Under the pieces are notes generated by a model, which was not told where the DNA came from, searched no databases, and saw only the letters and a list, made by a program, of their open reading frames with translations. The position numbers and the translations under genes are program-made. From Candidatus Hodarchaeota archaeon (GTDB lineage Archaea; Asgardarchaeota; Lokiarchaeia; Sigyniarchaeales; SOKP01): 64,000 bases of DNA. Each line of letters starts with the position of its first letter. The stretch's first letter is position 1. Of this stretch, positions 54,644 through 63,732 are shown in pieces. The stretch lies in NCBI GenBank assembly GCA_048887225.1, contig JBHLJY010000011.1:1-64000 (forward strand), in the 5' to 3' direction.

Positions 54644-57004
54644 TTAACTTAAAGGTTGGAATACCTTTTTCTTAACTAGTTTAAGGATTATTTCTGCTTT
54701 TTTAGCATTAAATTCCCTTTCAGGCATTAAAGATGCGACGTAGAAATGATTAGTATTCTTTTGTTTCATAATATCTAATACTTCTTTTACAAGGATTCTT
54801 TCTTGAATATCAAGTTTAATATCTTCCGACCTAACTGCTTTTAAAGGGTAGACTAAAGATGTGTTTAAATGATCTTCGATTAAATCCCTTATACCTTCAA
54901 ATTGAGTTATTTCACCGTCAAAATCTCCAAGCGATTTACCGTAATATCTATCAATATCATAAGATAATGGGTTAAGTGCATTATAAAAGTCGCTTGATGG
55001 ATTTTCTTTCATAATATTAATTATCCTGAAATTTTTAAATTCTGACATTAAAATCTTCATATTCTGATATTCTAATTTTATCGTTTGAGAATATTCATCG
55101 GAGCCTGAAAGCTCTAATCCAAAGTTGCGAATTGCTTCTAAAAATCCTGAGACTAATGTCACCTCAACTTTTTTGCCTGCTAGAACTTGTTCATATACAT
55201 TTATTCCAGATTTTTTTTCAGCAATAATAATATAATCAAGATTTAAAACATCATTATATTTGTTAAAAATTCTCTGTCTATATTCCGCTTTACTCCTCTT
55301 AATCTTCCTAACCACTTGATAGGAAGTTAGACCAGCAATTGAACTTAGTATTATAATAAGAACTATTACAAATATTAATTGTGGATCAATACCAGTAACA
55401 ACAGTATCACTATCATCATTATCATTATCTGAAGATTTAATAATTATAATCTCTTGAGTTTGAATTCCAGTGTCAGTTTCATTATTCCAGCAAACATAGG
55501 CAATCCATGTACCTGTATGCGGATTTGATGAAATCATATACGAGAAAATATTTTGATATGGAGGTGTTTCTGCTGTATCATTATATTCTTCATAACCTAA
55601 TGCATCGATTAAGACGTATGTAAGATTGCCGGTCAAACCAGGAGTGTTAACAGTAAATATTAAATTTTGGTTTGCTTCAAAGGTAGTCTTAGGAACTTCT
55701 AAAGTAAAACCTACATTTGGAGAATTAGCAGTAATTTTCCATATAGAATTTAGTGAAATACAATTGTTAAGTATATATAATGTATTTCCAATATCCTTGA
55801 TATCAGGATCTGATGTAATATTTACATTATCTCTCCATACTGTCAGATTATACCAACTTTTTGGATATCCAAATTTAACAGAATTATTAATAAAATGTGC
55901 TTTAATGTCAGGAGTTAGAGTCCATGAATTATTTAAGTTTTCTTTAATTAAGACAAATCCATCCGAAGACATGAAATTTCTCAAGTAAATATGATAGCTT
56001 AGGTTTACTAATAATTCGATGGATTGGTTGTGTTTTATTGGTATATGCAAAATTTCATTATTTGGAGAAAAATCAAGATCTTGTATGCTCACATTTCCTG
56101 TGTAAGGCTTTAATCCATTGCTAACTGTATAATTGTTACTGTCAATTTCCACAGCCATATTTATCTCTACTGGATTATAGGACTTATTTACTCTTTGAAC
56201 TAATTTATATAGATGAGTTTTTTCAATCCCCTCGTCAGACCATGATGAGCCATCATGTTGTGCTATACGTAAATTTGGATTTAACCATCCATGAGCACTC
56301 TTTTCATTGTTCCACCAATAATAAACTGTATTATCAAATTCAGTTAAAGCTGATCCATTAATTACTAATGAATAATATCCTTTTGAAAGATTTACTGGAT
56401 TCGAAAATGTTTGAAGATGCCACATTTCAGTTGTATTCATATTTATTATTTCAGATGCATACACAGTTTCATTTGGAATATTGTCAGGAATTTCATCATA
56501 ACCTCTTAATTGGAATAGAACTTTATTGGTTGGATCATTTTCTCTATTGCCATAAATATACGCCCCAAAAATAGTTATTGGTTCTGTAATATTAACTTGT
56601 ACGCTTAGAGCTTTTTGCTCGTCCCAGCCTACTAATTTTCTACGGTCCGGGTAATCTTCAATTGTTATTATTTGCCGACCTAATTTCACACTAGTAAAAT
56701 TCAACTCTATATCTGTAATATTCCAAGTAGATGATGGTAGATTTATGTTAAACGAACCAACATTCTTTTGAATGCCAATATCATCTGAAGATTCTAACAT
56801 TTGAAAGCTTGATGATATATTTAAAGATTCATCAATATATTGAGGAGCAGAAAGCTTAAGTGCTTGGTCTTTAAAACGAGATTGAGAAGGAGAATTAATT
56901 GTATTTTGAGATTGAATTGGGGAAAAAATAAATGAATTTAATAACACCAAAAGGAAACTTGATAAAATTAATATACATGTTATATAAATTCCTTTTTTTC
57001 TCAC
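54644..57004 (-). CDS. Single-pass membrane protein: large extracellular beta-rich region, TM, cytoplasmic longin-like domain
   Basis: Signal sequence, many NxS/T sites, TM LIFVIVLIIILSSIAGL, then IIIAEKKSGINVY...LVSGFLEAIRNFG. Confidence 0.75.
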   Translation of the reverse strand: MRKKGIYITCILILSSFLLVLLNSFIFSPIQSQNTINSPSQSRFKDQALKLSAPQYIDESLNISSSFQMLESSDDIGIQKNVGSFNINLPSSTWNITDIELNFTSVKLGRQIITIEDYPDRRKLVGWDEQKALSVQVNITEPITIFGAYIYGNRENDPTNKVLFQLRGYDEIPDNIPNETVYASEIINMNTTEMWHLQTFSNPVNLSKGYYSLVINGSALTEFDNTVYYWWNNEKSAHGWLNPNLRIAQHDGSSWSDEGIEKTHLYKLVQRVNKSYNPVEINMAVEIDSNNYTVSNGLKPYTGNVSIQDLDFSPNNEILHIPIKHNQSIELLVNLSYHIYLRNFMSSDGFVLIKENLNNSWTLTPDIKAHFINNSVKFGYPKSWYNLTVWRDNVNITSDPDIKDIGNTLYILNNCISLNSIWKITANSPNVGFTLEVPKTTFEANQNLIFTVNTPGLTGNLTYVLIDALGYEEYNDTAETPPYQNIFSYMISSNPHTGTWIAYVCWNNETDTGIQTQEIIIIKSSDNDNDDSDTVVTGIDPQLIFVIVLIIILSSIAGLTSYQVVRKIKRSKAEYRQRIFNKYNDVLNLDYIIIAEKKSGINVYEQVLAGKKVEVTLVSGFLEAIRNFGLELSGSDEYSQTIKLEYQNMKILMSEFKNFRIINIMKENPSSDFYNALNPLSYDIDRYYGKSLGDFDGEITQFEGIRDLIEDHLNTSLVYPLKAVRSEDIKLDIQERILVKEVLDIMKQKNTNHFYVASLMPEREFNAKKAEIILKLVKKKVFQPLS

Positions 57005-57342: not shown

Positions 57343-60300
57343 TTGACTTATATTAAAAAAATTAGCATGTCAGGTTTCAAATCCTTTGGAGATCGAACGG
57401 TAACAGTTAAGCTTTCAAGCGGCTTTACTTGTATTGTTGGGCCTAATGGTGCTGGAAAGTCTAATATCATTGATGCGTTATGCTTTGCATTAGGAAGATT
57501 AAGCAAGAAGACAATGAGAGCAAAATCCCTAGAAGATCTTATTTTTGCGGGTTCAAAAGGTAAAAATCCTGCTAATAGGGCTATGGTTACTTTGCACTTT
57601 GATAACTCTGAAAGCGTATTTCCGGGTGGCGCAAACGGAGATTTTACTATTAGTCGAACTATAAAGAGAGGCGGGGGGGGTGGTTATAAAATGAATGGTA
57701 AAAAAGCCACTCGACAACAAATTCTTAATGCCCTAGCTACAGCTAATATAGATCCTGATGGAACTAACCAATTTGTCCTTCAAGGTAAGATAGTCGAATT
57801 AACTCATATGAACTCTGAGGATCGCAGAAGATTTATTGAAGAACTTATTGGGCTTCAAAAATACGATGAAATGAAAGATGCAACACTAAAGGAACTTGAA
57901 AAAGCAGAGCGAGATCTTGGCCAATTTGAGGCAATCTTCAATGAAGTATCTGCTCAATTAAGAAAAGTTGAAAAGGAAAAAAATGACGCGCTTGCATGGC
58001 GTGAACTAGATGATCAAATAAGTCATTATAACGCTCAATTAATCTCTTTGAAAATTTCAAAATTACAAAAAGAAGAAGAAGAATTAGATAAAAAAATCGA
58101 AGAATCTGGTAAAGTCATTGAAGAATTACAAGAAAAAATAGTTAGACAAGAGGATATTCTGAAACAAGAAACCCTCGTTATGGAAAATATCCAAAAAACT
58201 ATAACTGAAAAAGAAAAAGAAAGAGAAGAAATAAACGAAGGTATTACGCAATTAAAGACGCAGTTATCTTCTAATCAAACTACTTTAGATTTAGCTGAAA
58301 AATCAATTGAAAAATTAAGACTAGAAAAGGAAAATTTAGAAAACTTACTAATGACTCTTGAAGAGGGTCAGAATTTTGATTCTCAAATTAAAATTGTAAC
58401 TATAGAAATCTCTGAAAAAGAAGCACAAATAGAAAATGCAAAACAAGATATTGAAAAAAGGCAGCAAAACCAAGCTGAACTAGATATTAAAATTAATAAT
58501 AGTGAAGATGAAAAATCTAATTTTAAATTAGAAATTTCGAAAGTTAAACAACAAATCTCATCAAACAAGGCACAAATTAAACTTCTTCGAGAAAATATAA
58601 AAAAAAATAAAGATAAGAAAAAGAATTTAGAGGCAGAATTAAATAGATTAAAGGGAGAGGCTGAGAGTGTAGAAGATGCTGTTGAAGCGACAAGAAAAAT
58701 TGAAAGCGAGATTAGAAAAAGAATTGAAGACTTAAAAAATAAAATTTCTGAAGAAAATAAGAGACAAATGAATTTAGAAAACTCAGTTAGTTCTACACTA
58801 AAAGTGAAAAGTGATTTAAATTCAAAATTATCTGGTTTACAAGCAACATTATCGTCTCTTAATACAGAAATTAAAATGAAAAAAGAGACTATTGCGGAGT
58901 TGAATACGAAAAAAGCAGACATTGGAAAAAAAATTAAAGAATTAAGTAAAGGTAAAGAAACGGAAGAAATTATAAAAGAACTCATAAAAGAAAAAGAAAA
59001 TAATATTAAAAAAATTACTAACTTAAAGGCTAAATCCAAAAACGAGGATTCAATTTATCGCGAGAACGAACAAAATTTTGAATTATTAAAATTGAAACAA
59101 AACTCTATTGAAACTGAAATTATTGATAATAAAGGAAAAATTTCAAACATCAATACCGAACTAAAAATATTTAAAAAAGAATTAATGAACTTAGAGCGTG
59201 AAAAACGAAATTTAGACTTAATTATTAATGATTTGAACGCTAATATCTCAAAAACAGGAAAAGAAATAAAAAACTTCAATATAAAAAAAGAAAATATCCA
59301 AAGACGGCTAAATGAACTCTCTAAAGAGAAGGAAACTTTATTGAACAGGATTGAAAATACAGAAGAAGAATATGAGAAAAATAAAGAGGATATCACAGGA
59401 ATTCTACAAATCCTAAATATGCTTACTCAAAATATCGATGTGTCTGTAGAATCTATTAAGGGCTCTATACAACAATCAAATACCGAAGCGATTAATACAT
59501 CTGCGGAAGATTTTAGAAAATTCGTATTAGACATTGTTGATATAATGAAAACTCTAGAGAGCGTAGGTGGTGACGCAGATGAAATATCTGAAATGACAGA
59601 TATGCTTAATTCTATAGTTCAAACATTAGGGATTTTTACTGAAAATGCTGATGCTACAATTGAACAACTTATTAATAAAGTAAAGGACTCAGCTGATATT
59701 GCAGTACAAAGTTCTACATCAGATTTTGATAGTTTTGTTCAAGACTTAACATATATCCTTGAAAATGTACATTTGTCTTTAAGAAAATTAACTTTATCTA
59801 AAAGTCAAGAGCTTTATAAACAGTTAGAAGAAATTTCAAATAATATCAAATCTCAAGATGATGACTTAAATGATATTGAGAGAAAACTAACAATAGTGAG
59901 TAGTCAAAATAAACATGATTCAGAAAAACTCTCAGCATCAAAACGAAGGCTTGAGGAAGTTCACAAAAGAATGAAAGATTTAAACTTAAAAGAAGAAAAA
60001 TATAAGAAAGAAATAGAGGAAAGGAATAAGAAAATAAAAGAAAGACAAAGTAATTATGATGATTTAAATAATGAAATAAATAAATTAAAGGAAATAAAAG
60101 ATAGATACTGGGATAATATTTCTGAAATTCAAAATGAGAGTGATAGAATCCAAATTGAATTAAACAATAATCAAGAAAAACTTCAAGAACTAGAAGGAAT
60201 TCAAACTTTATTTGAAAATATAGCAGATATTGACAATATAATGCTTGAATTGAATAATACTATAGAAGAAAAGAAAAAACTAATAATCGATACTGGAACG

Positions 60301-61800
60301 AAAATTAATAAGGTACAACAAGAAGCAGAATCTTTACAGAAAAAGATAGAAACTTTAACCAGCGACAAAGAGAAATTTTGGGAAACAACTGAGGATATAC
60401 AGATCAAAATAGATGAAGAAAATAAAAAATTAGAAGAAACAATAGATGTTCTAAGAGGTCTCGATAATATAATGAGAATTATCCATTCAATTGAAGAATT
60501 AAAAAAAGAAAACGTAGAAGCAAATAAAAACATTGAACTAAGCAAAAAAAAGATGGATAACTATAATTCTGAAGTTGATAAAATCCAAAAAAATGTTGAA
60601 GATAAACAAAGAGTAATAGATACATTAAGAGATGAAAAGGCTGCAGAATTAGAAGAGCAAAAGAAAGCTCAAAATAAATTAAATAAGTTAAATAAAAATT
60701 TACAGAAAACTCAAGCTAAATTAAATGAATTATATAAAAATAAAGAAAGAGAACAACAAATAATCAAAATTGGAGAGAATATCAAAGAGACAGAAAAACA
60801 AACAGAAGTTTTAGTAAAAAAAATTGGAAAACTTGATGAAAATTTAGAAAACGAAATCAAGAAAAAAGATGCAAAACAGGCGGAAATAGATGAATTTATT
60901 AAAGAAAAAGATGAATCTTGGAAAAAGCAAAAACAATATCAAAATATAATTACTGATCTTAAGTCAGATCTTTCAATGGAGAATTCTAAAATAAACAATT
61001 TTGAATCTAAAAAATTTATTTGTATTGATCAGATTGAAACTTTATATGAGAGATCAAAAGATTATGGTACTCTACCTCCAGTAACTGATGAGATCACGGA
61101 AGAGGGCCTACAATCGGATATTGAAATTGCTACAAAAAAGAAAAAAGCACTTGAGCCCGTCAATTTAAAAGCTATTGAACAATACGATGTTGTTAAAGAA
61201 AGATTTGATGAAATAGATATGCGAAGACAAACAATTCAAAGAGAAAGAAAGGCAATTCTTGACTCAATTGATAAAATTGAATTAGAAAAAACACGTACCT
61301 TTATGAAAGCTTATCACGAAATTAATCGTGAGTTTTCACGGATTTTCCAGAAACTTTCTCCTGGTGGTTCAGCAAAAATGATTCTGGATAGACCTGATAA
61401 ACCCTTTGAAGGCGGAATTAGCATTGAGGCAAGACCAAGGGGTAAAAAGATTAGTTCCCTAGAAATTTTAAGTGGAGGTGAAAAAACATTAGTAGCATTA
61501 TCATTTATTTTTGCTGTTCAAGAATTTTATCCTGCTCCGTTTTACATTTTAGATGAGATTGATGCCGCATTAGACGGTCCAAATGTTCATCGCGTTAGTA
61601 TGGTGCTCAAAGAATTCTCAAGCCAAGCTCAATTTTTAGTGATTAGCCATCGAGAAGAAAATATTGTTAATGCAGATAGAATTTATGGAGTTTCGATGCC
61701 GCAAAGCGGAATCACTGATATATTTAGTGTCGATTTAGAAGAAGAAGCAAAAAGACTTCTTGAACTTGAAGATGTCGTGCCTGAAGTTGGAGAGGGCTAA
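57343..61800 (+). CDS. smc: Chromosome partition ATPase Smc with extended arms and non-canonical helical apex
   Basis: GFKSF, Walker A GPNGAGKSN, Q-loop VLQG, PVNLKAIEQY, LSGGEK, ILDEIDAALD, ISH; followed by scpA and scpB. Confidence 0.93.
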   Translation: MTYIKKISMSGFKSFGDRTVTVKLSSGFTCIVGPNGAGKSNIIDALCFALGRLSKKTMRAKSLEDLIFAGSKGKNPANRAMVTLHFDNSESVFPGGANGDFTISRTIKRGGGGGYKMNGKKATRQQILNALATANIDPDGTNQFVLQGKIVELTHMNSEDRRRFIEELIGLQKYDEMKDATLKELEKAERDLGQFEAIFNEVSAQLRKVEKEKNDALAWRELDDQISHYNAQLISLKISKLQKEEEELDKKIEESGKVIEELQEKIVRQEDILKQETLVMENIQKTITEKEKEREEINEGITQLKTQLSSNQTTLDLAEKSIEKLRLEKENLENLLMTLEEGQNFDSQIKIVTIEISEKEAQIENAKQDIEKRQQNQAELDIKINNSEDEKSNFKLEISKVKQQISSNKAQIKLLRENIKKNKDKKKNLEAELNRLKGEAESVEDAVEATRKIESEIRKRIEDLKNKISEENKRQMNLENSVSSTLKVKSDLNSKLSGLQATLSSLNTEIKMKKETIAELNTKKADIGKKIKELSKGKETEEIIKELIKEKENNIKKITNLKAKSKNEDSIYRENEQNFELLKLKQNSIETEIIDNKGKISNINTELKIFKKELMNLEREKRNLDLIINDLNANISKTGKEIKNFNIKKENIQRRLNELSKEKETLLNRIENTEEEYEKNKEDITGILQILNMLTQNIDVSVESIKGSIQQSNTEAINTSAEDFRKFVLDIVDIMKTLESVGGDADEISEMTDMLNSIVQTLGIFTENADATIEQLINKVKDSADIAVQSSTSDFDSFVQDLTYILENVHLSLRKLTLSKSQELYKQLEEISNNIKSQDDDLNDIERKLTIVSSQNKHDSEKLSASKRRLEEVHKRMKDLNLKEEKYKKEIEERNKKIKERQSNYDDLNNEINKLKEIKDRYWDNISEIQNESDRIQIELNNNQEKLQELEGIQTLFENIADIDNIMLELNNTIEEKKKLIIDTGTKINKVQQEAESLQKKIETLTSDKEKFWETTEDIQIKIDEENKKLEETIDVLRGLDNIMRIIHSIEELKKENVEANKNIELSKKKMDNYNSEVDKIQKNVEDKQRVIDTLRDEKAAELEEQKKAQNKLNKLNKNLQKTQAKLNELYKNKEREQQIIKIGENIKETEKQTEVLVKKIGKLDENLENEIKKKDAKQAEIDEFIKEKDESWKKQKQYQNIITDLKSDLSMENSKINNFESKKFICIDQIETLYERSKDYGTLPPVTDEITEEGLQSDIEIATKKKKALEPVNLKAIEQYDVVKERFDEIDMRRQTIQRERKAILDSIDKIELEKTRTFMKAYHEINREFSRIFQKLSPGGSAKMILDRPDKPFEGGISIEARPRGKKISSLEILSGGEKTLVALSFIFAVQEFYPAPFYILDEIDAALDGPNVHRVSMVLKEFSSQAQFLVISHREENIVNADRIYGVSMPQSGITDIFSVDLEEEAKRLLELEDVVPEVGEG
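59392..59769 (+). repeat. Two gapless 55-aa protein-level repeats flanking the Smc midpoint
   Basis: aa 684-738 versus 755-809 share 16/55 identities with no gaps. Confidence 0.8.
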
Positions 61801-61818
61801 TATTAAATCTTCAAAGAG

Positions 61819-62823
61819 GTGTTAATAATTTCAGATGAGAAAAGTTCTATGAAAGATATCGATTTTTACAAATGGACAGTAAAGGAATTAAAAGAATTTT
61901 GTAGTAAGAATAATATAAAAATACCCGCAAAGTCTAGAAAAAAAGATATCGTAGAACTTATTCAAAATATAGTATCACATCCTGATTTTATTGATAGATC
62001 ACAAGAAGAAATGTTAGAAGAAGAAATAGTTGCGGAATTTGTTGATGAAGATCTTGCGTTATTAAGAAAAGAGAAAATGGATTTAAAATTTTGGCAAAAA
62101 CCTCCCTATTCTTCATTATTGGATCTTGAATTAGCTAAAGATTCTGAACTAGTATTTTATGATTTAGCTAACTTGATTGAAAAATTCTTTTCTAAAATGC
62201 TTCAAGAAGATTTAATTAATTATAAAATTTCAGGAATTGCACTAAAATCAGCAGCATCTTTACATCATTATAAAATTTCTAGCATAATAAAAGAAGAAGA
62301 ACAGATTCAAAAAATGGAGGAACTAGAAAAATTAAGGGCTAGACATTCAAGAACGATTCCTAAATCATTACCGCAACCTACAAAACCTAAAATGCAATTA
62401 GCCACAAAAGAAGAATTATTTGATGCAATGAGAGCTGCAATCATTGAAACTATGCAAAACAAAGAAAAATTGAAACGTCGACGGTTGCACAGAGAAGAAG
62501 AAAAACAGAAAAGATTACAAATGAAGTCAAAAGCAAAATTACCTAAAGAACTCTTAAAACACATTAGCGGAAAAGAACAATCTATAGAAGAATTACATGA
62601 AAGCTGGTTTAATAGAATAAAAGGAACAATTAATCTTAACAATGTGGATACGAGTTTTTTTGATCTTCTCAAGATAATAAAAAGCGACGAAAAAAGTCGC
62701 ATTGGCAGGAAGTTTGCTCTTGTAAGATTGTTCTTAGCCCTAATGTTCTTGAGTACTAATAATAAAATTGAGTTATTTCAAGATGATGAATTTAAAGATG
62801 TTTCAATTAGTCTTAAAAAATAA
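61819..62823 (+). CDS. scpA: ScpA-type kleisin with extra N-terminal HeH/SAP-like domain
   Basis: DLANLIEKFFSKM..NYKISGIALKSAASL..K (kleisin N domain), LFLALMFL..KIELFQDDEFKDV (C winged helix); lies between smc and scpB. Confidence 0.85.
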   Translation: MLIISDEKSSMKDIDFYKWTVKELKEFCSKNNIKIPAKSRKKDIVELIQNIVSHPDFIDRSQEEMLEEEIVAEFVDEDLALLRKEKMDLKFWQKPPYSSLLDLELAKDSELVFYDLANLIEKFFSKMLQEDLINYKISGIALKSAASLHHYKISSIIKEEEQIQKMEELEKLRARHSRTIPKSLPQPTKPKMQLATKEELFDAMRAAIIETMQNKEKLKRRRLHREEEKQKRLQMKSKAKLPKELLKHISGKEQSIEELHESWFNRIKGTINLNNVDTSFFDLLKIIKSDEKSRIGRKFALVRLFLALMFLSTNNKIELFQDDEFKDVSISLKK

Positions 62824-62856
62824 AAAATTTCAACTTAAAAATCTTGGAGATGTAAT

Positions 62857-63732
62857 TTGAATAATTTTAATGAAGATTTAGATGAGAATTCTAAAGAAGA
62901 TAATGAAGATCATTTAGATCAGGAGTCAAAAGAAGAATCAAATGATCTTTCAAATGAAGAAATTGATGAAATTCCCAAGATTCAATCTCAAGGAAGCGCT
63001 ACTAAAGGTACTAGTGAAGAAATTATTGACGATATAATTTCAAAAAGCGAGATCGATGCTCAAATAGGATTTTCTTCGAAGTCTGATCTTTCTGAAGAAG
63101 ATATGTTAGTAAGACAATTAAGGGATTTTCATCGAAATCAAATTGAAGCTTCTCTTTATGTAGCAGGCAGACCATTGAGTATTGAAGAATTATCAACTAA
63201 ACTCGAAATTAAAAAAAAAGAAGTTGAAGAATTAATCAATGAAATTGCTTTCGATTATTTAGATCGTTCAACTGCCCTGGTAATTGCTCAAATAGGAGAT
63301 AGCTACCAAATGCAAATTAAACCTGAATATGCAGAAAAAGTCTCAAAATTAGCTAAAGGTGGTGCTATAGCAGAGAGGTACTTAAGAACATTAACTATTA
63401 TCGCTTTGAAACAACCTATTTTGAAATCTTTAGTTGTGAAAATAAGAGGAAGCGGAGCTTATGAGCATATCAAATATCTTCAGGATAACGGTCTAATCGC
63501 TGCGGTGAAAAAAGGAAGAACACACGAGTTAACTACAACGGATAAATATTCTGAAATGTTTGGATTACCAAAAGATATAGAAGAACTGAAAAGAGTAATG
63601 ATCTCGCAATTAGGTCTTGATGAAGTAGAATCTGGAGATGAAATTTCTTATGAAATTGAAGTACCTGCCGAAGATAATGTATTTTCTGAAGATGAAGAAT
63701 CATCTGAAAATGAAGAAAATACTCAAGAATAA
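62857..63732 (+). CDS. scpB: ScpB (kite) with acidic terminal extensions
   Basis: IEASLYVAGRPLS, LRTLTIIALKQPI, IRG..YEHIK.L, GRT..TTDKYSEMFGL. Confidence 0.92.
   Translation: MNNFNEDLDENSKEDNEDHLDQESKEESNDLSNEEIDEIPKIQSQGSATKGTSEEIIDDIISKSEIDAQIGFSSKSDLSEEDMLVRQLRDFHRNQIEASLYVAGRPLSIEELSTKLEIKKKEVEELINEIAFDYLDRSTALVIAQIGDSYQMQIKPEYAEKVSKLAKGGAIAERYLRTLTIIALKQPILKSLVVKIRGSGAYEHIKYLQDNGLIAAVKKGRTHELTTTDKYSEMFGLPKDIEELKRVMISQLGLDEVESGDEISYEIEVPAEDNVFSEDEESSENEENTQE

What the first reader, a model, noticed from the sequence alone, without database searches (positions are those of the whole stretch)
57343..63732. Candidate new SMC complex type: hinge-less long-armed Smc with HeH-kleisin and ScpB
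Seen: an intact smc-scpA-scpB operon with all ATPase motifs. The Smc is 1485 aa (typical prokaryotic Smc is about 1150-1200 aa) and shows neither the alpha/beta hinge with GX6GX3GG nor a Rad50 CxxC hook. All three subunits deviate: helical apex and modular arms, a kleisin with an added DNA-binding-type domain, and a kite with long acidic tails. Inference: a condensin-like complex that closes its ring and handles DNA differently from canonical Smc-ScpAB. I cannot confirm from the sequence alone that it is undescribed.
Basis: partly seen in the sequence, partly recalled or inferred. Interest (0 to 1): 0.9.

Follow-up and report, generated by a model that had tools for sequence, protein, structure and literature searches.

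The report
Hinge-less long-armed Smc complex of Lokiarchaea
Lokiarchaeal (Asgard) archaea carry a conserved chromosome-folding SMC complex whose normal "hinge" joint is replaced by a plain helical hairpin on arms about half again as long, which matters because the hinge is thought to be a universal working part of these DNA motors.

Summary
Window 57343-63732 (+) encodes a tight smc-kleisin-scpB operon:
- **Smc:** 1485 aa with intact ATPase motifs.
- **Kleisin:** 334 aa with an N-terminal SAP/HeH-like module.
- **ScpB:** 291 aa with acidic tails.

The Smc has no hinge by Pfam (E<=1), by profile-profile comparison or by AlphaFold2. Residues 561-959 fold as one helical hairpin that turns at G742-G743, flanked by a conserved duplicated 55-aa unit. 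There is no CxxC hook.

It is not an assembly artefact. More than 120 protein clusters share the 1473-1487 aa length. The apex occurs in 129 of 151 sampled genomes of the window's order, but only 35 cluster representatives among 1.84 billion proteins carry it.

The heads are canonical archaeal Smc type and form one clade (100/100). That clade is separate from the ordinary hinge-bearing Smc (1193 aa, contig 15) and from a divergent third SMC.

Closed genomes of the sister family hold all three. In the window's family either of the other two can be missing, while the hinge-less one was found in 37 of 40 sampled genomes.

The best reading is a lineage-specific hinge-less variant of Smc-ScpAB, probably the main condensin. 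Ring closure through the apex is inferred, not shown. I found no paper noting the hinge loss. Earlier notes from this scan all concern this same stretch.

The parts
57343..61800 (+). smc paralog, 1485 aa, TTG start; hinge-less long-armed Smc
   Evidence: SMC_N E 2.5e-45; TIGR02168 584 bits (above cut-off); Pyrococcus Smc head 5xei 401 bits; no PF06470 hit
57343..57852 (+). N-terminal half of the ATPase head (aa 1-170): Walker A GPNGAGKS at 33, Q-loop at 146
57853..59391 (+). N-terminal arm helix (aa ~171-683), with ~97/195-aa periodicity
   Evidence: lag 195 z 7.2; seen in distant family members, absent in the canonical paralog
59392..59556 (+). apex repeat 1 (aa 684-738), the most conserved part of the middle region
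   Evidence: AF2 helix
59566..59586 (+). turn of the hairpin (aa 742-748, GGDADEI), variable and acidic in relatives
   Evidence: loop 743-748, pLDDT <50
59605..59769 (+). apex repeat 2 (aa 755-809), paralogous to repeat 1
59770..61212 (+). C-terminal arm helix (aa ~810-1290), including about four tandem 90-aa modules (aa ~870-1230)
   Evidence: lag 90 z 9.5; 20-33% identity between successive modules
61213..61800 (+). C-terminal half of the ATPase head: signature LSGGE 1376, Walker B 1400, D-loop 1407, H-loop 1434
61819..62823 (+). kleisin (ScpA-like), 334 aa
61867..61968 (+). SAP/HeH/LEM-like helix-extension-helix module at the kleisin N-terminus (aa 17-50)
   Evidence: Ish1 E 7e-5 here; 14/17 relatives hit Ish1, 10 Rho_N, 9 HeH; AF2 helices 21-30 and 41-52
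62536..62820 (+). kleisin C-terminal winged-helix domain (aa ~240-334)
   Evidence: Foldseek top hits are ScpA-C/Scc1-C bound to SMC heads (TM 0.77-0.82)
62857..63732 (+). kite ScpB, 291 aa, with an acidic N tail (~90 aa) and an acidic C tail (~45 aa)
63139..63594 (+). ScpB tandem winged-helix core (aa 95-246)
   Evidence: PF04079 E 3e-36

Best explanation
This is a lineage-specific, hinge-less variant of the prokaryotic condensin Smc-ScpAB, carried by one order of Lokiarchaeia (Asgard archaea).

Shown:
- An SMC ATPase with canonical archaeal-Smc heads is encoded with its own kleisin and its own ScpB kite.
- The alpha/beta hinge is replaced by the tip of a continuous antiparallel helical hairpin. 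That tip carries a conserved, internally duplicated 55-aa unit on each strand.
- Each arm strand is about 500-570 aa, against about 330 in the genome's ordinary Smc, and contains tandem ~90-97-aa modules.
- The kleisin has gained a SAP/HeH-type module, and the kite has gained acidic tails.

Inferred:
- Two Smc chains pair along their arms and at the conserved apex, probably as a four-helix bundle of two hairpin tips.
- The kleisin bridges the neck of one head and the cap of the other through its N-domain and C-terminal winged helix, and two ScpB bind the kleisin.
- The complex uses ATP-driven head engagement to entrap and extrude chromosomal DNA, as Smc-ScpAB does.
- The SAP/HeH module, replaced by a Lys-rich tail in a distant relative, supplies a DNA contact. 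This may substitute for DNA binding by the hinge.

The gene is kept in nearly all genomes of the order, while either of the two other SMC paralogs can be missing. Its heads also evolve more slowly than those of the canonical paralog. It is therefore probably the principal chromosome organiser there.
For: Identity:
- Heads match Pyrococcus Smc at 401 bits (5xei), against about 30-40 bits for Smc5/6 and Rad50.
- TIGR02168 scores 584 bits, above its cut-off.
- All ATPase motifs are intact.
- ScpB scores E 3e-36, and the kleisin C-terminal winged helix matches ScpA-C by fold.

No hinge.

Real and conserved:
- More than 120 clusters of 1473-1487 aa at 65-94% identity.
- The apex is found in 43 of 201 genomes of the phylum sample: 37/40 in the window's family and 3/3 in the sister family.
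- It is found in 129 of 151 genomes of the order sample, including 14/14 of the sister family.
- Only 35 of 1.84e9 cluster representatives carry the apex.

Gene linkage: smc-kleisin-scpB appears in a closed Lokiarchaeal chromosome (L067). In a distant relative the kleisin and scpB sit next to smc but are transcribed divergently (L068).

Phylogeny (397 head columns, careful tree):
- Hinge-less clade 100/100.
- Same-order canonical clade 100/100.
- Divergent SMC clade 100/99 as outgroup.
- Path length G000 to G138 is 0.045 for the hinge-less heads, against 0.24 for the canonical heads.

Paralog pattern:
- Three closed sister-family genomes hold all three SMCs: 1492-1509 aa, 1200-1207 aa and 1187-1188 aa.
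- In the window's family, only 7 sampled genomes (G000 among them) show a canonical-type hinge at E~1e-32 to 1e-35. The others show only the weak-hinge SMC of ~1150-1175 aa.
- G000 lacks that divergent SMC.

Arm modules are family-wide and absent from the canonical paralog.

Precedent: B. subtilis Smc stays functional when its hinge is swapped for the Rad50 zinc hook, and only certain arm lengths work (PMC5344682). Arm-arm contacts also contribute to dimerisation of hinge-less Smc (PMC5526789).
Against: - Nothing here shows that the apex dimerises. The AF2 model is a monomer, apex pLDDT is only 50-75, and the alignment is shallow (25 rows at >=54% identity).
- The apex is acidic (K+R 5%), so it is unlikely to bind DNA itself.
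- The score against the archaeal equivalog TIGR02169 (614 bits) is below its cut-off (729).
- The kleisin N-terminal domain has no detectable sequence match to ScpA-N, and its Pfam ScpA hit is below the gathering score.
- I obtained no expression or functional data.
- The position of the hinge-less clade relative to the other Asgard canonical Smc clades is unresolved (support 44/65 and below). No non-Asgard or eukaryotic sequences were in the tree.
Confidence: 0.62

Rival explanations
1. This reading keeps the same complex but has the apex not close the ring by homodimerising. The two chains would be held together only by head engagement, the kleisin and arm zippering (a rod or an open V). Alternatively, the conserved apex is a docking site for another factor.
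For: - The dimer prediction gave no support either way, so apex pairing remains open.
- The apex is the most conserved part of the middle region, which also fits a partner-binding surface.
- Sister-family genomes encode head-less coiled-coil proteins of 925-1118 aa with two tandem apex-like domains and a histone-H1-like Lys-rich tail. This shows that the apex unit is a portable module that could pair with other proteins.
- Arm contacts alone contribute to dimerisation of hinge-less B. subtilis Smc (PMC5526789).
Against: - G000 and its family have only one apex-bearing gene, so no such partner is encoded there.
- Every characterised SMC-kleisin complex has a dedicated dimerisation element at the arm tip.
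- The closest fold matches, chemoreceptor hairpins (2ch7), are themselves homodimeric four-helix bundles, although this match is generic.
Confidence: 0.22
2. The complex is an accessory SMC system with a specialised role such as DNA repair, defence against foreign DNA, or handling of particular loci. The housekeeping condensin would be the hinge-bearing Smc or the divergent SMC.
For: - It is one of up to three SMC paralogs per genome.
- Its phylogenetic range is narrow.
- Its accessory subunits are remodelled.
Against: - It is the paralog most consistently present in the order, while each of the others is missing from many near-complete genomes.
- Its heads evolve more slowly than the canonical paralog's.
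- No nuclease or defence-type gene adjoins it: the neighbours are a carbon-nitrogen hydrolase and a 786-aa unknown ORF here, and a class-I aminoacyl-tRNA synthetase gene (Pfam hits include Val_tRNA-synt_C, weak) in L067.
- No MukF/MukE or Wadjet-type families were hit.
Confidence: 0.12
3. The long hinge-less ORF is an artefact: a chimeric assembly, a fusion of fragments, or a decaying pseudogene.
For: None found.
Against: - The same architecture and length appear in more than 120 independent clusters from NCBI, JGI, ENA and Logan assemblies, including contigs of 1.3 and 2.3 Mb and single-contig genomes.
- There are no internal stops, and the ATPase motifs are intact.
- The apex is under strong conservation.
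Confidence: 0.01

Closest known systems
Prokaryotic condensin Smc-ScpAB (e.g. Pyrococcus, Bacillus subtilis)
   Same: - Canonical Smc ATPase heads: 401 bits to the P. yayanosii Smc head.
- Antiparallel coiled-coil arms.
- A kleisin with a C-terminal winged helix of ScpA type, and a ScpB kite.
- An operon in the order smc-scpA-scpB.
   Different: - No alpha/beta hinge; a helical hairpin tip with a duplicated 55-aa unit takes its place.
- Arm strands of about 500-570 aa rather than about 330-345.
- Tandem 90-97-aa arm modules.
- A SAP/HeH-like module on the kleisin.
- Long acidic tails on ScpB.
- It coexists with an ordinary hinge-bearing Smc in the same genome.
Rad50/SbcC
   Same: An ABC-type head on a long antiparallel coiled coil that ends in a simple hairpin tip rather than a globular hinge. 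The Rad50 coiled coil is among the generic fold matches (7zr1).
   Different: - No CxxC zinc hook (no Cys between 48 and 1226).
- Heads are far closer to Smc than to Rad50 (401 against about 30 bits).
- The partners are a kleisin and a kite, not the Mre11/SbcD nuclease.
Engineered B. subtilis Smc(Zh), with the hinge replaced by the Rad50 zinc hook (Burmann et al. 2017, PMC5344682)
   Same: Smc heads and arms combined with an unrelated tip dimerisation element. That work shows the hinge fold is not needed for growth on rich medium, and that arm length must fall within discrete windows.
   Different: The present case is natural, with a metal-free helical tip and much longer arms. Whether a ~500-aa arm falls on the next allowed length window is my extrapolation, not tested.
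'Hinge-less' SMC cluster of marine Actinobacteria (Sussfeld et al. 2025, PMC12153180)
   Same: A natural SMC homologue lacking the hinge and lacking a CxxC hook.
   Different: It is bacterial and known from ocean gene-catalogue sequences. As far as I read that paper, it reports no kleisin/kite operon and no co-resident canonical Smc. I did not compare the sequences.
Asgard/TACK SMC paralogs (canonical aSMC and SMC5/6-related aSMC; Yoshinaga & Inagaki 2021, PMC8665677; van Hooff et al. bioRxiv 10.1101/2024.01.07.573240)
   Same: Multiple complete SMC-kleisin-kite operons per archaeal genome. These papers report two, and in some Asgard three, complexes.
   Different: The hinge-less protein groups with the canonical (condensin/cohesin-related) heads, not with the divergent weak-hinge SMC. 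I found no mention of hinge loss or arm extension in the main texts or the held supplements.
Archaeal hinge-poor SMC-like proteins (ASRP, coalescin ClsN, arcadin-4)
   Same: Archaeal SMC-superfamily ATPases with non-canonical middles.
   Different: NCBIfam scores are far below the cut-offs (ASRP 150 against 300; arcadin-4 47 against 860). To my knowledge those proteins are shorter and are not encoded with ScpA/ScpB.

Membership tests
Smc-ScpAB (prokaryotic condensin) | SMC-type ABC ATPase head with Walker A, Q-loop, signature, Walker B/D-loop and H-loop | tested here: met
   SMC_N E 2.5e-45; 401 bits to the Pyrococcus Smc head; all motifs present
Smc-ScpAB (prokaryotic condensin) | Central SMC hinge domain (PF06470) that dimerises two chains | tested here: not met
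   No hit at E<=1; hhalign probability 0.5% against the hinge of the co-resident Smc; AF2 predicts an all-helical hairpin
Smc-ScpAB (prokaryotic condensin) | Long antiparallel intramolecular coiled coil between head and tip | tested here: met
   AF2 of aa 560-960: helices 561-742 and 749-959, pLDDT above 90 along the arms. Only the distal 400 aa were modelled.
Smc-ScpAB (prokaryotic condensin) | Curated equivalog scores (TIGR02169 archaeal type, TIGR02168 bacterial type) | tested here: inconclusive
   TIGR02169 614 bits, below 729; TIGR02168 584 bits, above 567; matched in 4-5 separate stretches
Smc-ScpAB (prokaryotic condensin) | Kleisin ScpA: N-terminal helical domain for the Smc neck and C-terminal winged helix for the cap | tested here: inconclusive
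   C-terminal winged helix supported by fold (4i99_C, 5xg3_C, TM 0.77-0.82, E 3e-3). Pfam ScpA 20.6 bits, below 24.6; 8/17 relatives hit ScpA. The N-domain is conserved but unmatched.
Smc-ScpAB (prokaryotic condensin) | Kite ScpB with tandem winged helices | tested here: met
   PF04079 124.8 bits; TIGR00281 99.7 bits, above 89.2
Smc-ScpAB (prokaryotic condensin) | Physical assembly of Smc2-ScpA-ScpB2 and DNA entrapment or loop extrusion | not testable with these tools
   Only gene linkage is shown
Rad50/SbcC | CxxC zinc hook at the coiled-coil tip and an Mre11/SbcD partner | tested here: not met
   No CxxC anywhere; Rad50 models 72-89 bits against cut-offs of 700-1087; no nuclease gene in the operon
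SMC5/6-related archaeal SMC | Head groups with the divergent (GxNxSGKT, weak-hinge) archaeal clade | tested here: not met
   The head tree places the hinge-less clade within the canonical group, separated from the divergent clade by a 100/99 branch
ASRP / arcadin-4 (archaeal SMC-related proteins) | NCBIfam equivalog score above cut-off | tested here: not met
   ASRP 149.9 against 300; Rkd4 47.3 against 860
SAP/HeH/LEM-like helix-extension-helix domains | A ~35-aa two-helix motif matching the Ish1/HeH/SAP/Rho_N profiles | tested here: inconclusive
   In P0002 all hits are below the gathering scores (Ish1 23.5 against 26.6). Across 17 relatives, 14 hit Ish1 (best 2.8e-7), 10 Rho_N and 9 HeH. AF2 helices at 21-30 and 41-52, pLDDT ~80. 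DNA binding was not tested.

The most novel reading that the evidence does not exclude
A third, previously undescribed architecture of SMC-kleisin-kite complex exists in the archaeal order that appears to include the cultured Lokiarchaea. It closes its ring through a metal-free helical-hairpin apex instead of a hinge, has arms of roughly 70 nm or more built from tandem modules, and is the one SMC complex these organisms do not lose. If so, the hinge is dispensable in nature for a principal chromosome-organising SMC motor in close relatives of eukaryotes.
Probability: 0.4. Interest if true: 0.78.

Novelty: new variant of a known kind. Interest (0 to 1): 0.66.

Why it matters
The hinge is treated as a defining and mechanistically important part of SMC-kleisin motors: a dimerisation point, a DNA-binding site, and a proposed DNA gate. 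A naturally hinge-less Smc that keeps canonical heads, a kleisin and a kite is therefore informative. It is conserved across an Asgard order and retained more faithfully than the ordinary Smc beside it.

It offers a natural experiment on three questions:
- What the hinge is really needed for.
- How arm length is tuned.
- How extra DNA contacts, such as a SAP/HeH module on the kleisin, might compensate for the missing hinge.

Three closed genomes of the sister family carry all three SMC paralogs. Two of them have the sizes I recall for the cultured Prometheoarchaeum syntrophicum and Lokiarchaeum ossiferum; that identification is an inference from genome size only. If it is correct, the question is open to experiment. 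The finding also bears on what SMC repertoire the archaeal ancestor of eukaryotes had.

Tried and rejected
- **Apex homodimer prediction** (aa 649-869, two copies, own alignment). The first call failed. The second returned 'no answer', score 0.01 against a mark of 0.42, with no controls run. This is neither support nor evidence against.
- **Foldseek of the apex model against the PDB**. Only generic helical hairpins came back (chemoreceptor 2ch7, Rad50 coiled coil, dynein stalk, MukB elbow), which is not informative about homology.
- **The search for related loci with the divergent apex alignment** failed for lack of conserved stretches. With the single protein it returned 9 MAG loci and none from a named cultured organism.
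- **The listing of cluster members** for distant relatives gave no organism names beyond 'Promethearchaeota archaeon'.
- **The sigma-70 promoter and terminator scan** is at chance level and is not designed for archaea.
- **A search for a second kleisin in the genome** found none besides P0002 (Pfam ScpA; own kleisin profile on all ORFs >=80 aa and tblastn).
- **Rejected readings:**
  - Rad50-like: no hook, and the heads are too distant.
  - SMC5/6-related paralog: excluded by the head tree.
  - ASRP or arcadin-4: scores far below the cut-offs.
  - Misassembly: the architecture is too widely replicated.
- **The single apex hit outside the order** (G193, on an 8.6-kb contig) has heads nearly identical to a sister-family sequence. 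I read it as a mis-binned contig or a recent transfer, not as wider distribution.
Full report
**What is there**

The window is contig 11 of a 3.27-Mb, 98%-complete genome of about 28% G+C. Database names of close homologues place it in Lokiarchaeia/Promethearchaeota, the Asgard archaea.

Three co-directional ORFs sit at 57343-61800, 61819-62823 and 62857-63732, separated by 18 and 33 nt.

- **Smc (1485 aa).** It has SMC_N heads (E 2.5e-45) and scores 584 bits on TIGR02168, above that model's cut-off. It scores 614 bits on TIGR02169, below that model's 729.
  - Against solved structures its heads match the Pyrococcus Smc head at 401 bits, cohesin and condensin SMCs at 120-190 bits, and Smc5/6 and Rad50 only at about 30-40 bits.
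  - All ATPase motifs are intact.
- **Kleisin (334 aa).** The Pfam ScpA hit is sub-threshold and covers only the C-terminal part.
  - An AF2 model (pLDDT 70.6) has a C-terminal winged helix. Its best PDB matches are ScpA-C and Scc1-C bound to SMC heads (TM 0.77-0.82).
- **ScpB (291 aa).** It scores PF04079 E 3e-36 and TIGR00281 above cut-off.

**The hinge is absent**

- PF06470 gives no hit at E<=1. The same search finds a strong hinge (E 3e-33) in the genome's other Smc.
- A profile of 25 family members over aa 560-960 shows no similarity to that hinge region (hhalign probability 0.5%).
- AF2 with the same alignment predicts helix 561-742, a loop at 743-748 and helix 749-959. Mean pLDDT is 84, above 90 along the arms and 50-75 at the tip.
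- There is no CxxC, no GX6GX3GG, no Cys between 48 and 1226 and no Pro between 200 and 1244.
- The tip is the best-conserved part of the middle region. It consists of two paralogous ~55-aa units (684-738 and 755-809) around a variable acidic turn. It is poor in basic residues (K+R 5%).

**It is a real, conserved family with a narrow range**

- More than 120 clusters at 65-94% identity have lengths of 1473-1487 aa. They come from independent NCBI, JGI, ENA and Logan assemblies, some on Mb-scale contigs.
- In an exhaustive search of 1.84 billion cluster representatives, the apex (aa 670-850) finds only 35 proteins. The full-length ones are 1464-1497 aa with the apex at the same position.
- In a 201-genome sample of the phylum the apex occurs in 43 genomes. 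That is 37/40 of the window's family, 3/3 of the sister family, one weak chance-level hit, and one hit on an 8.6-kb contig of another family. The heads on that contig are almost identical to a sister-family sequence, so it is probably mis-binned.
- In a 151-genome sample of the order it occurs in 129 genomes, including 35 of 39 high-quality ones and 14/14 of the sister family.

**The three genes belong together**

The order smc-kleisin-scpB recurs on a 2.27-Mb chromosome (L067). In a distant relative, whose apex is 21% identical, the kleisin and scpB lie next to smc but are transcribed divergently (L068).

The deviations of the partners are family traits:
- 14 of 17 kleisins hit Ish1, 10 hit Rho_N and 9 hit HeH.
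- Some kleisins carry two such modules (400-410 aa).
- The distant L068 kleisin has a Lys-rich tail instead of the module.
- The long acidic N tail of ScpB is present in L067 and L068. It is absent from the 188-aa ScpB that follows the canonical Smc.

**Relation to the other SMCs**

G000 has a second, ordinary Smc (1193 aa, TIGR02169 792 bits, hinge present), directly followed by a short ScpB. Its heads are about as close to Pyrococcus Smc (381 bits) as those of the hinge-less protein.

Many relatives have a third, much more divergent SMC of ~1150-1190 aa. It has a GPNWSGKT Walker A, a weak hinge hit and only ~63 bits to solved Smc heads. It probably corresponds to the 'SMC5/6-related' archaeal SMC of the literature, but I did not test that.

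A maximum-likelihood tree of 397 head columns from 46 sequences (IQ-TREE, LG+C20 PMSF) gives three groups:
- the hinge-less proteins as one clade (100/100);
- the same-order canonical Smc as another clade (100/100);
- the divergent SMCs as a third group (100/99), used as outgroup.

The hinge-less clade lies within the canonical Asgard group, but its exact sister is unresolved (support <=50). Its stem is long (0.69) and its crown branches are short. Between G000 and its congener, the hinge-less heads differ by 0.045 substitutions per site and the canonical heads by 0.24.

**Pattern of retention**

- Three single-contig genomes of the sister family (4.4, 6.0 and 4.3 Mb) each hold all three SMCs.
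- In the window's family, a canonical-type hinge (E about 1e-32 to 1e-35, ~1196-1203 aa) was found in 7 sampled genomes of three genera, including G000. Most others show only the weak-hinge SMC.
- G000 in turn lacks the divergent SMC.

So each of the two hinge-bearing paralogs is missing somewhere, while the hinge-less one is present almost everywhere. Absence from draft genomes is 'not found', not proven loss.

**Arms**

From the head to the tip each strand has about 570 (N) and 540 (C) residues, or about 510 and 480 if the conserved apex is excluded. The co-resident Smc has about 330.

- Similarity autocorrelation shows a 90-aa period in the C arm (z 9.5, with a 180 harmonic) and a ~97/195-aa period in the N arm (z 7.2), beyond the heptad multiples.
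- Successive 90-aa modules are 20-33% identical.
- The same periods appear in distant family members and not in the canonical paralog.

This supports arm extension by tandem module duplication. Published work shows that only discrete arm lengths are functional in B. subtilis Smc (253-267, 330-373 and 407-435 aa; PMC5344682). Whether ~500 aa is the next allowed window is my extrapolation.

**Mechanism**

Shown:
- the composition of the complex;
- intact ATPase motifs;
- the hairpin tip;
- conservation and gene linkage.

Inferred from established knowledge of Smc-ScpAB:
- a homodimer with arms zipped into a rod;
- the kleisin bridging neck and cap, with two ScpB on the kleisin;
- ATP-driven DNA entrapment and loop extrusion.

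Tip-to-tip pairing as a four-helix bundle is a hypothesis. Three things make it plausible:
- the strong conservation of the apex;
- the viability of B. subtilis Smc carrying a foreign tip dimeriser (PMC5344682);
- the contribution of arm contacts to dimerisation of hinge-less Smc (PMC5526789).

The SAP/HeH module, or its Lys-rich replacement, would add a DNA contact on the kleisin. That this compensates for the lost hinge is speculation.

**Prior knowledge**

- Two papers report two, and in some Asgard three, SMC complexes per genome and list an smc-kleisin-kite region in P. syntrophicum (PMC8665677; bioRxiv 10.1101/2024.01.07.573240). Neither the main texts nor the held supplements mention a missing hinge.
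- 'Hinge-less SMC' has been reported for a marine actinobacterial cluster (PMC12153180).
- Searches for hinge-less or hinge-lacking SMC in Asgard archaea found nothing further.
- The library does not cover most subscription journals, so prior description cannot be excluded.

**Verdict**

This is a new variant of a known kind, of real interest to the SMC field and testable if, as genome sizes suggest, the cultured Lokiarchaea carry it.

The earlier notes of this scan that I retrieved all concern this same stretch or other parts of the same window. None is on other DNA.

Noticed in passing
L035:678-3755 (-), from G089; also G205, G208, G209, G211, G212, G213, G215, G216: Sister-family genomes encode head-less coiled-coil proteins of 925-1118 aa. 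They carry one or two tandem copies of the Smc-apex-like unit and, in L035, a histone-H1-like Lys-rich C-terminal tail (PF07382 E 1e-4), with no Walker A. They might pair with the Smc apex. None was found in G000.
   Followed up: partly
L014:5990-10124 (G000 contig 15); L039-L043: In this order the ordinary hinge-bearing Smc is always directly followed by a short (~190-aa) ScpB, with no kleisin gene between or beside them. No second kleisin was detectable anywhere in G000. Either the SAP/HeH kleisin is shared by both Smc proteins, or a very divergent kleisin exists.
   Followed up: partly
L046:362-5437 (G008) and equivalents L044-L048: A third, divergent SMC of ~1160 aa (Walker A GPNWSGKT, weak hinge) is flanked by 216-aa and 308-aa ORFs without Pfam hits. 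These are probably its kite and kleisin. This paralog is missing from G000.
   Followed up: partly
window 59950-61032 (+), aa ~870-1230 of the Smc: About four tandem 90-aa modules in the C-terminal arm share a recurring pattern (I..L...K....W......Q). The N arm has a ~97/195-aa period. Both are conserved family-wide and absent from the canonical Smc.
   Followed up: yes
L068:987-2024 (-): In the most distant family member examined, the kleisin N-terminus has a Lys/Thr/Ala-rich basic tail where the SAP/HeH module sits in the others. Other relatives (P0142, P0165, P0197, P0199; 400-410 aa) carry two SAP/HeH-type modules.
   Followed up: partly
window 54644-57004 (-): A 786-aa ORF lies directly upstream of the operon and is divergently oriented. 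It has no Pfam family at E<=0.001.
   Followed up: no
G193:C70 (L036): The only apex-bearing Smc outside the order lies on an 8.6-kb contig. Its heads are nearly identical to those of a sister-family genome (G162), which suggests a mis-binned contig or a recent transfer.
   Followed up: partly
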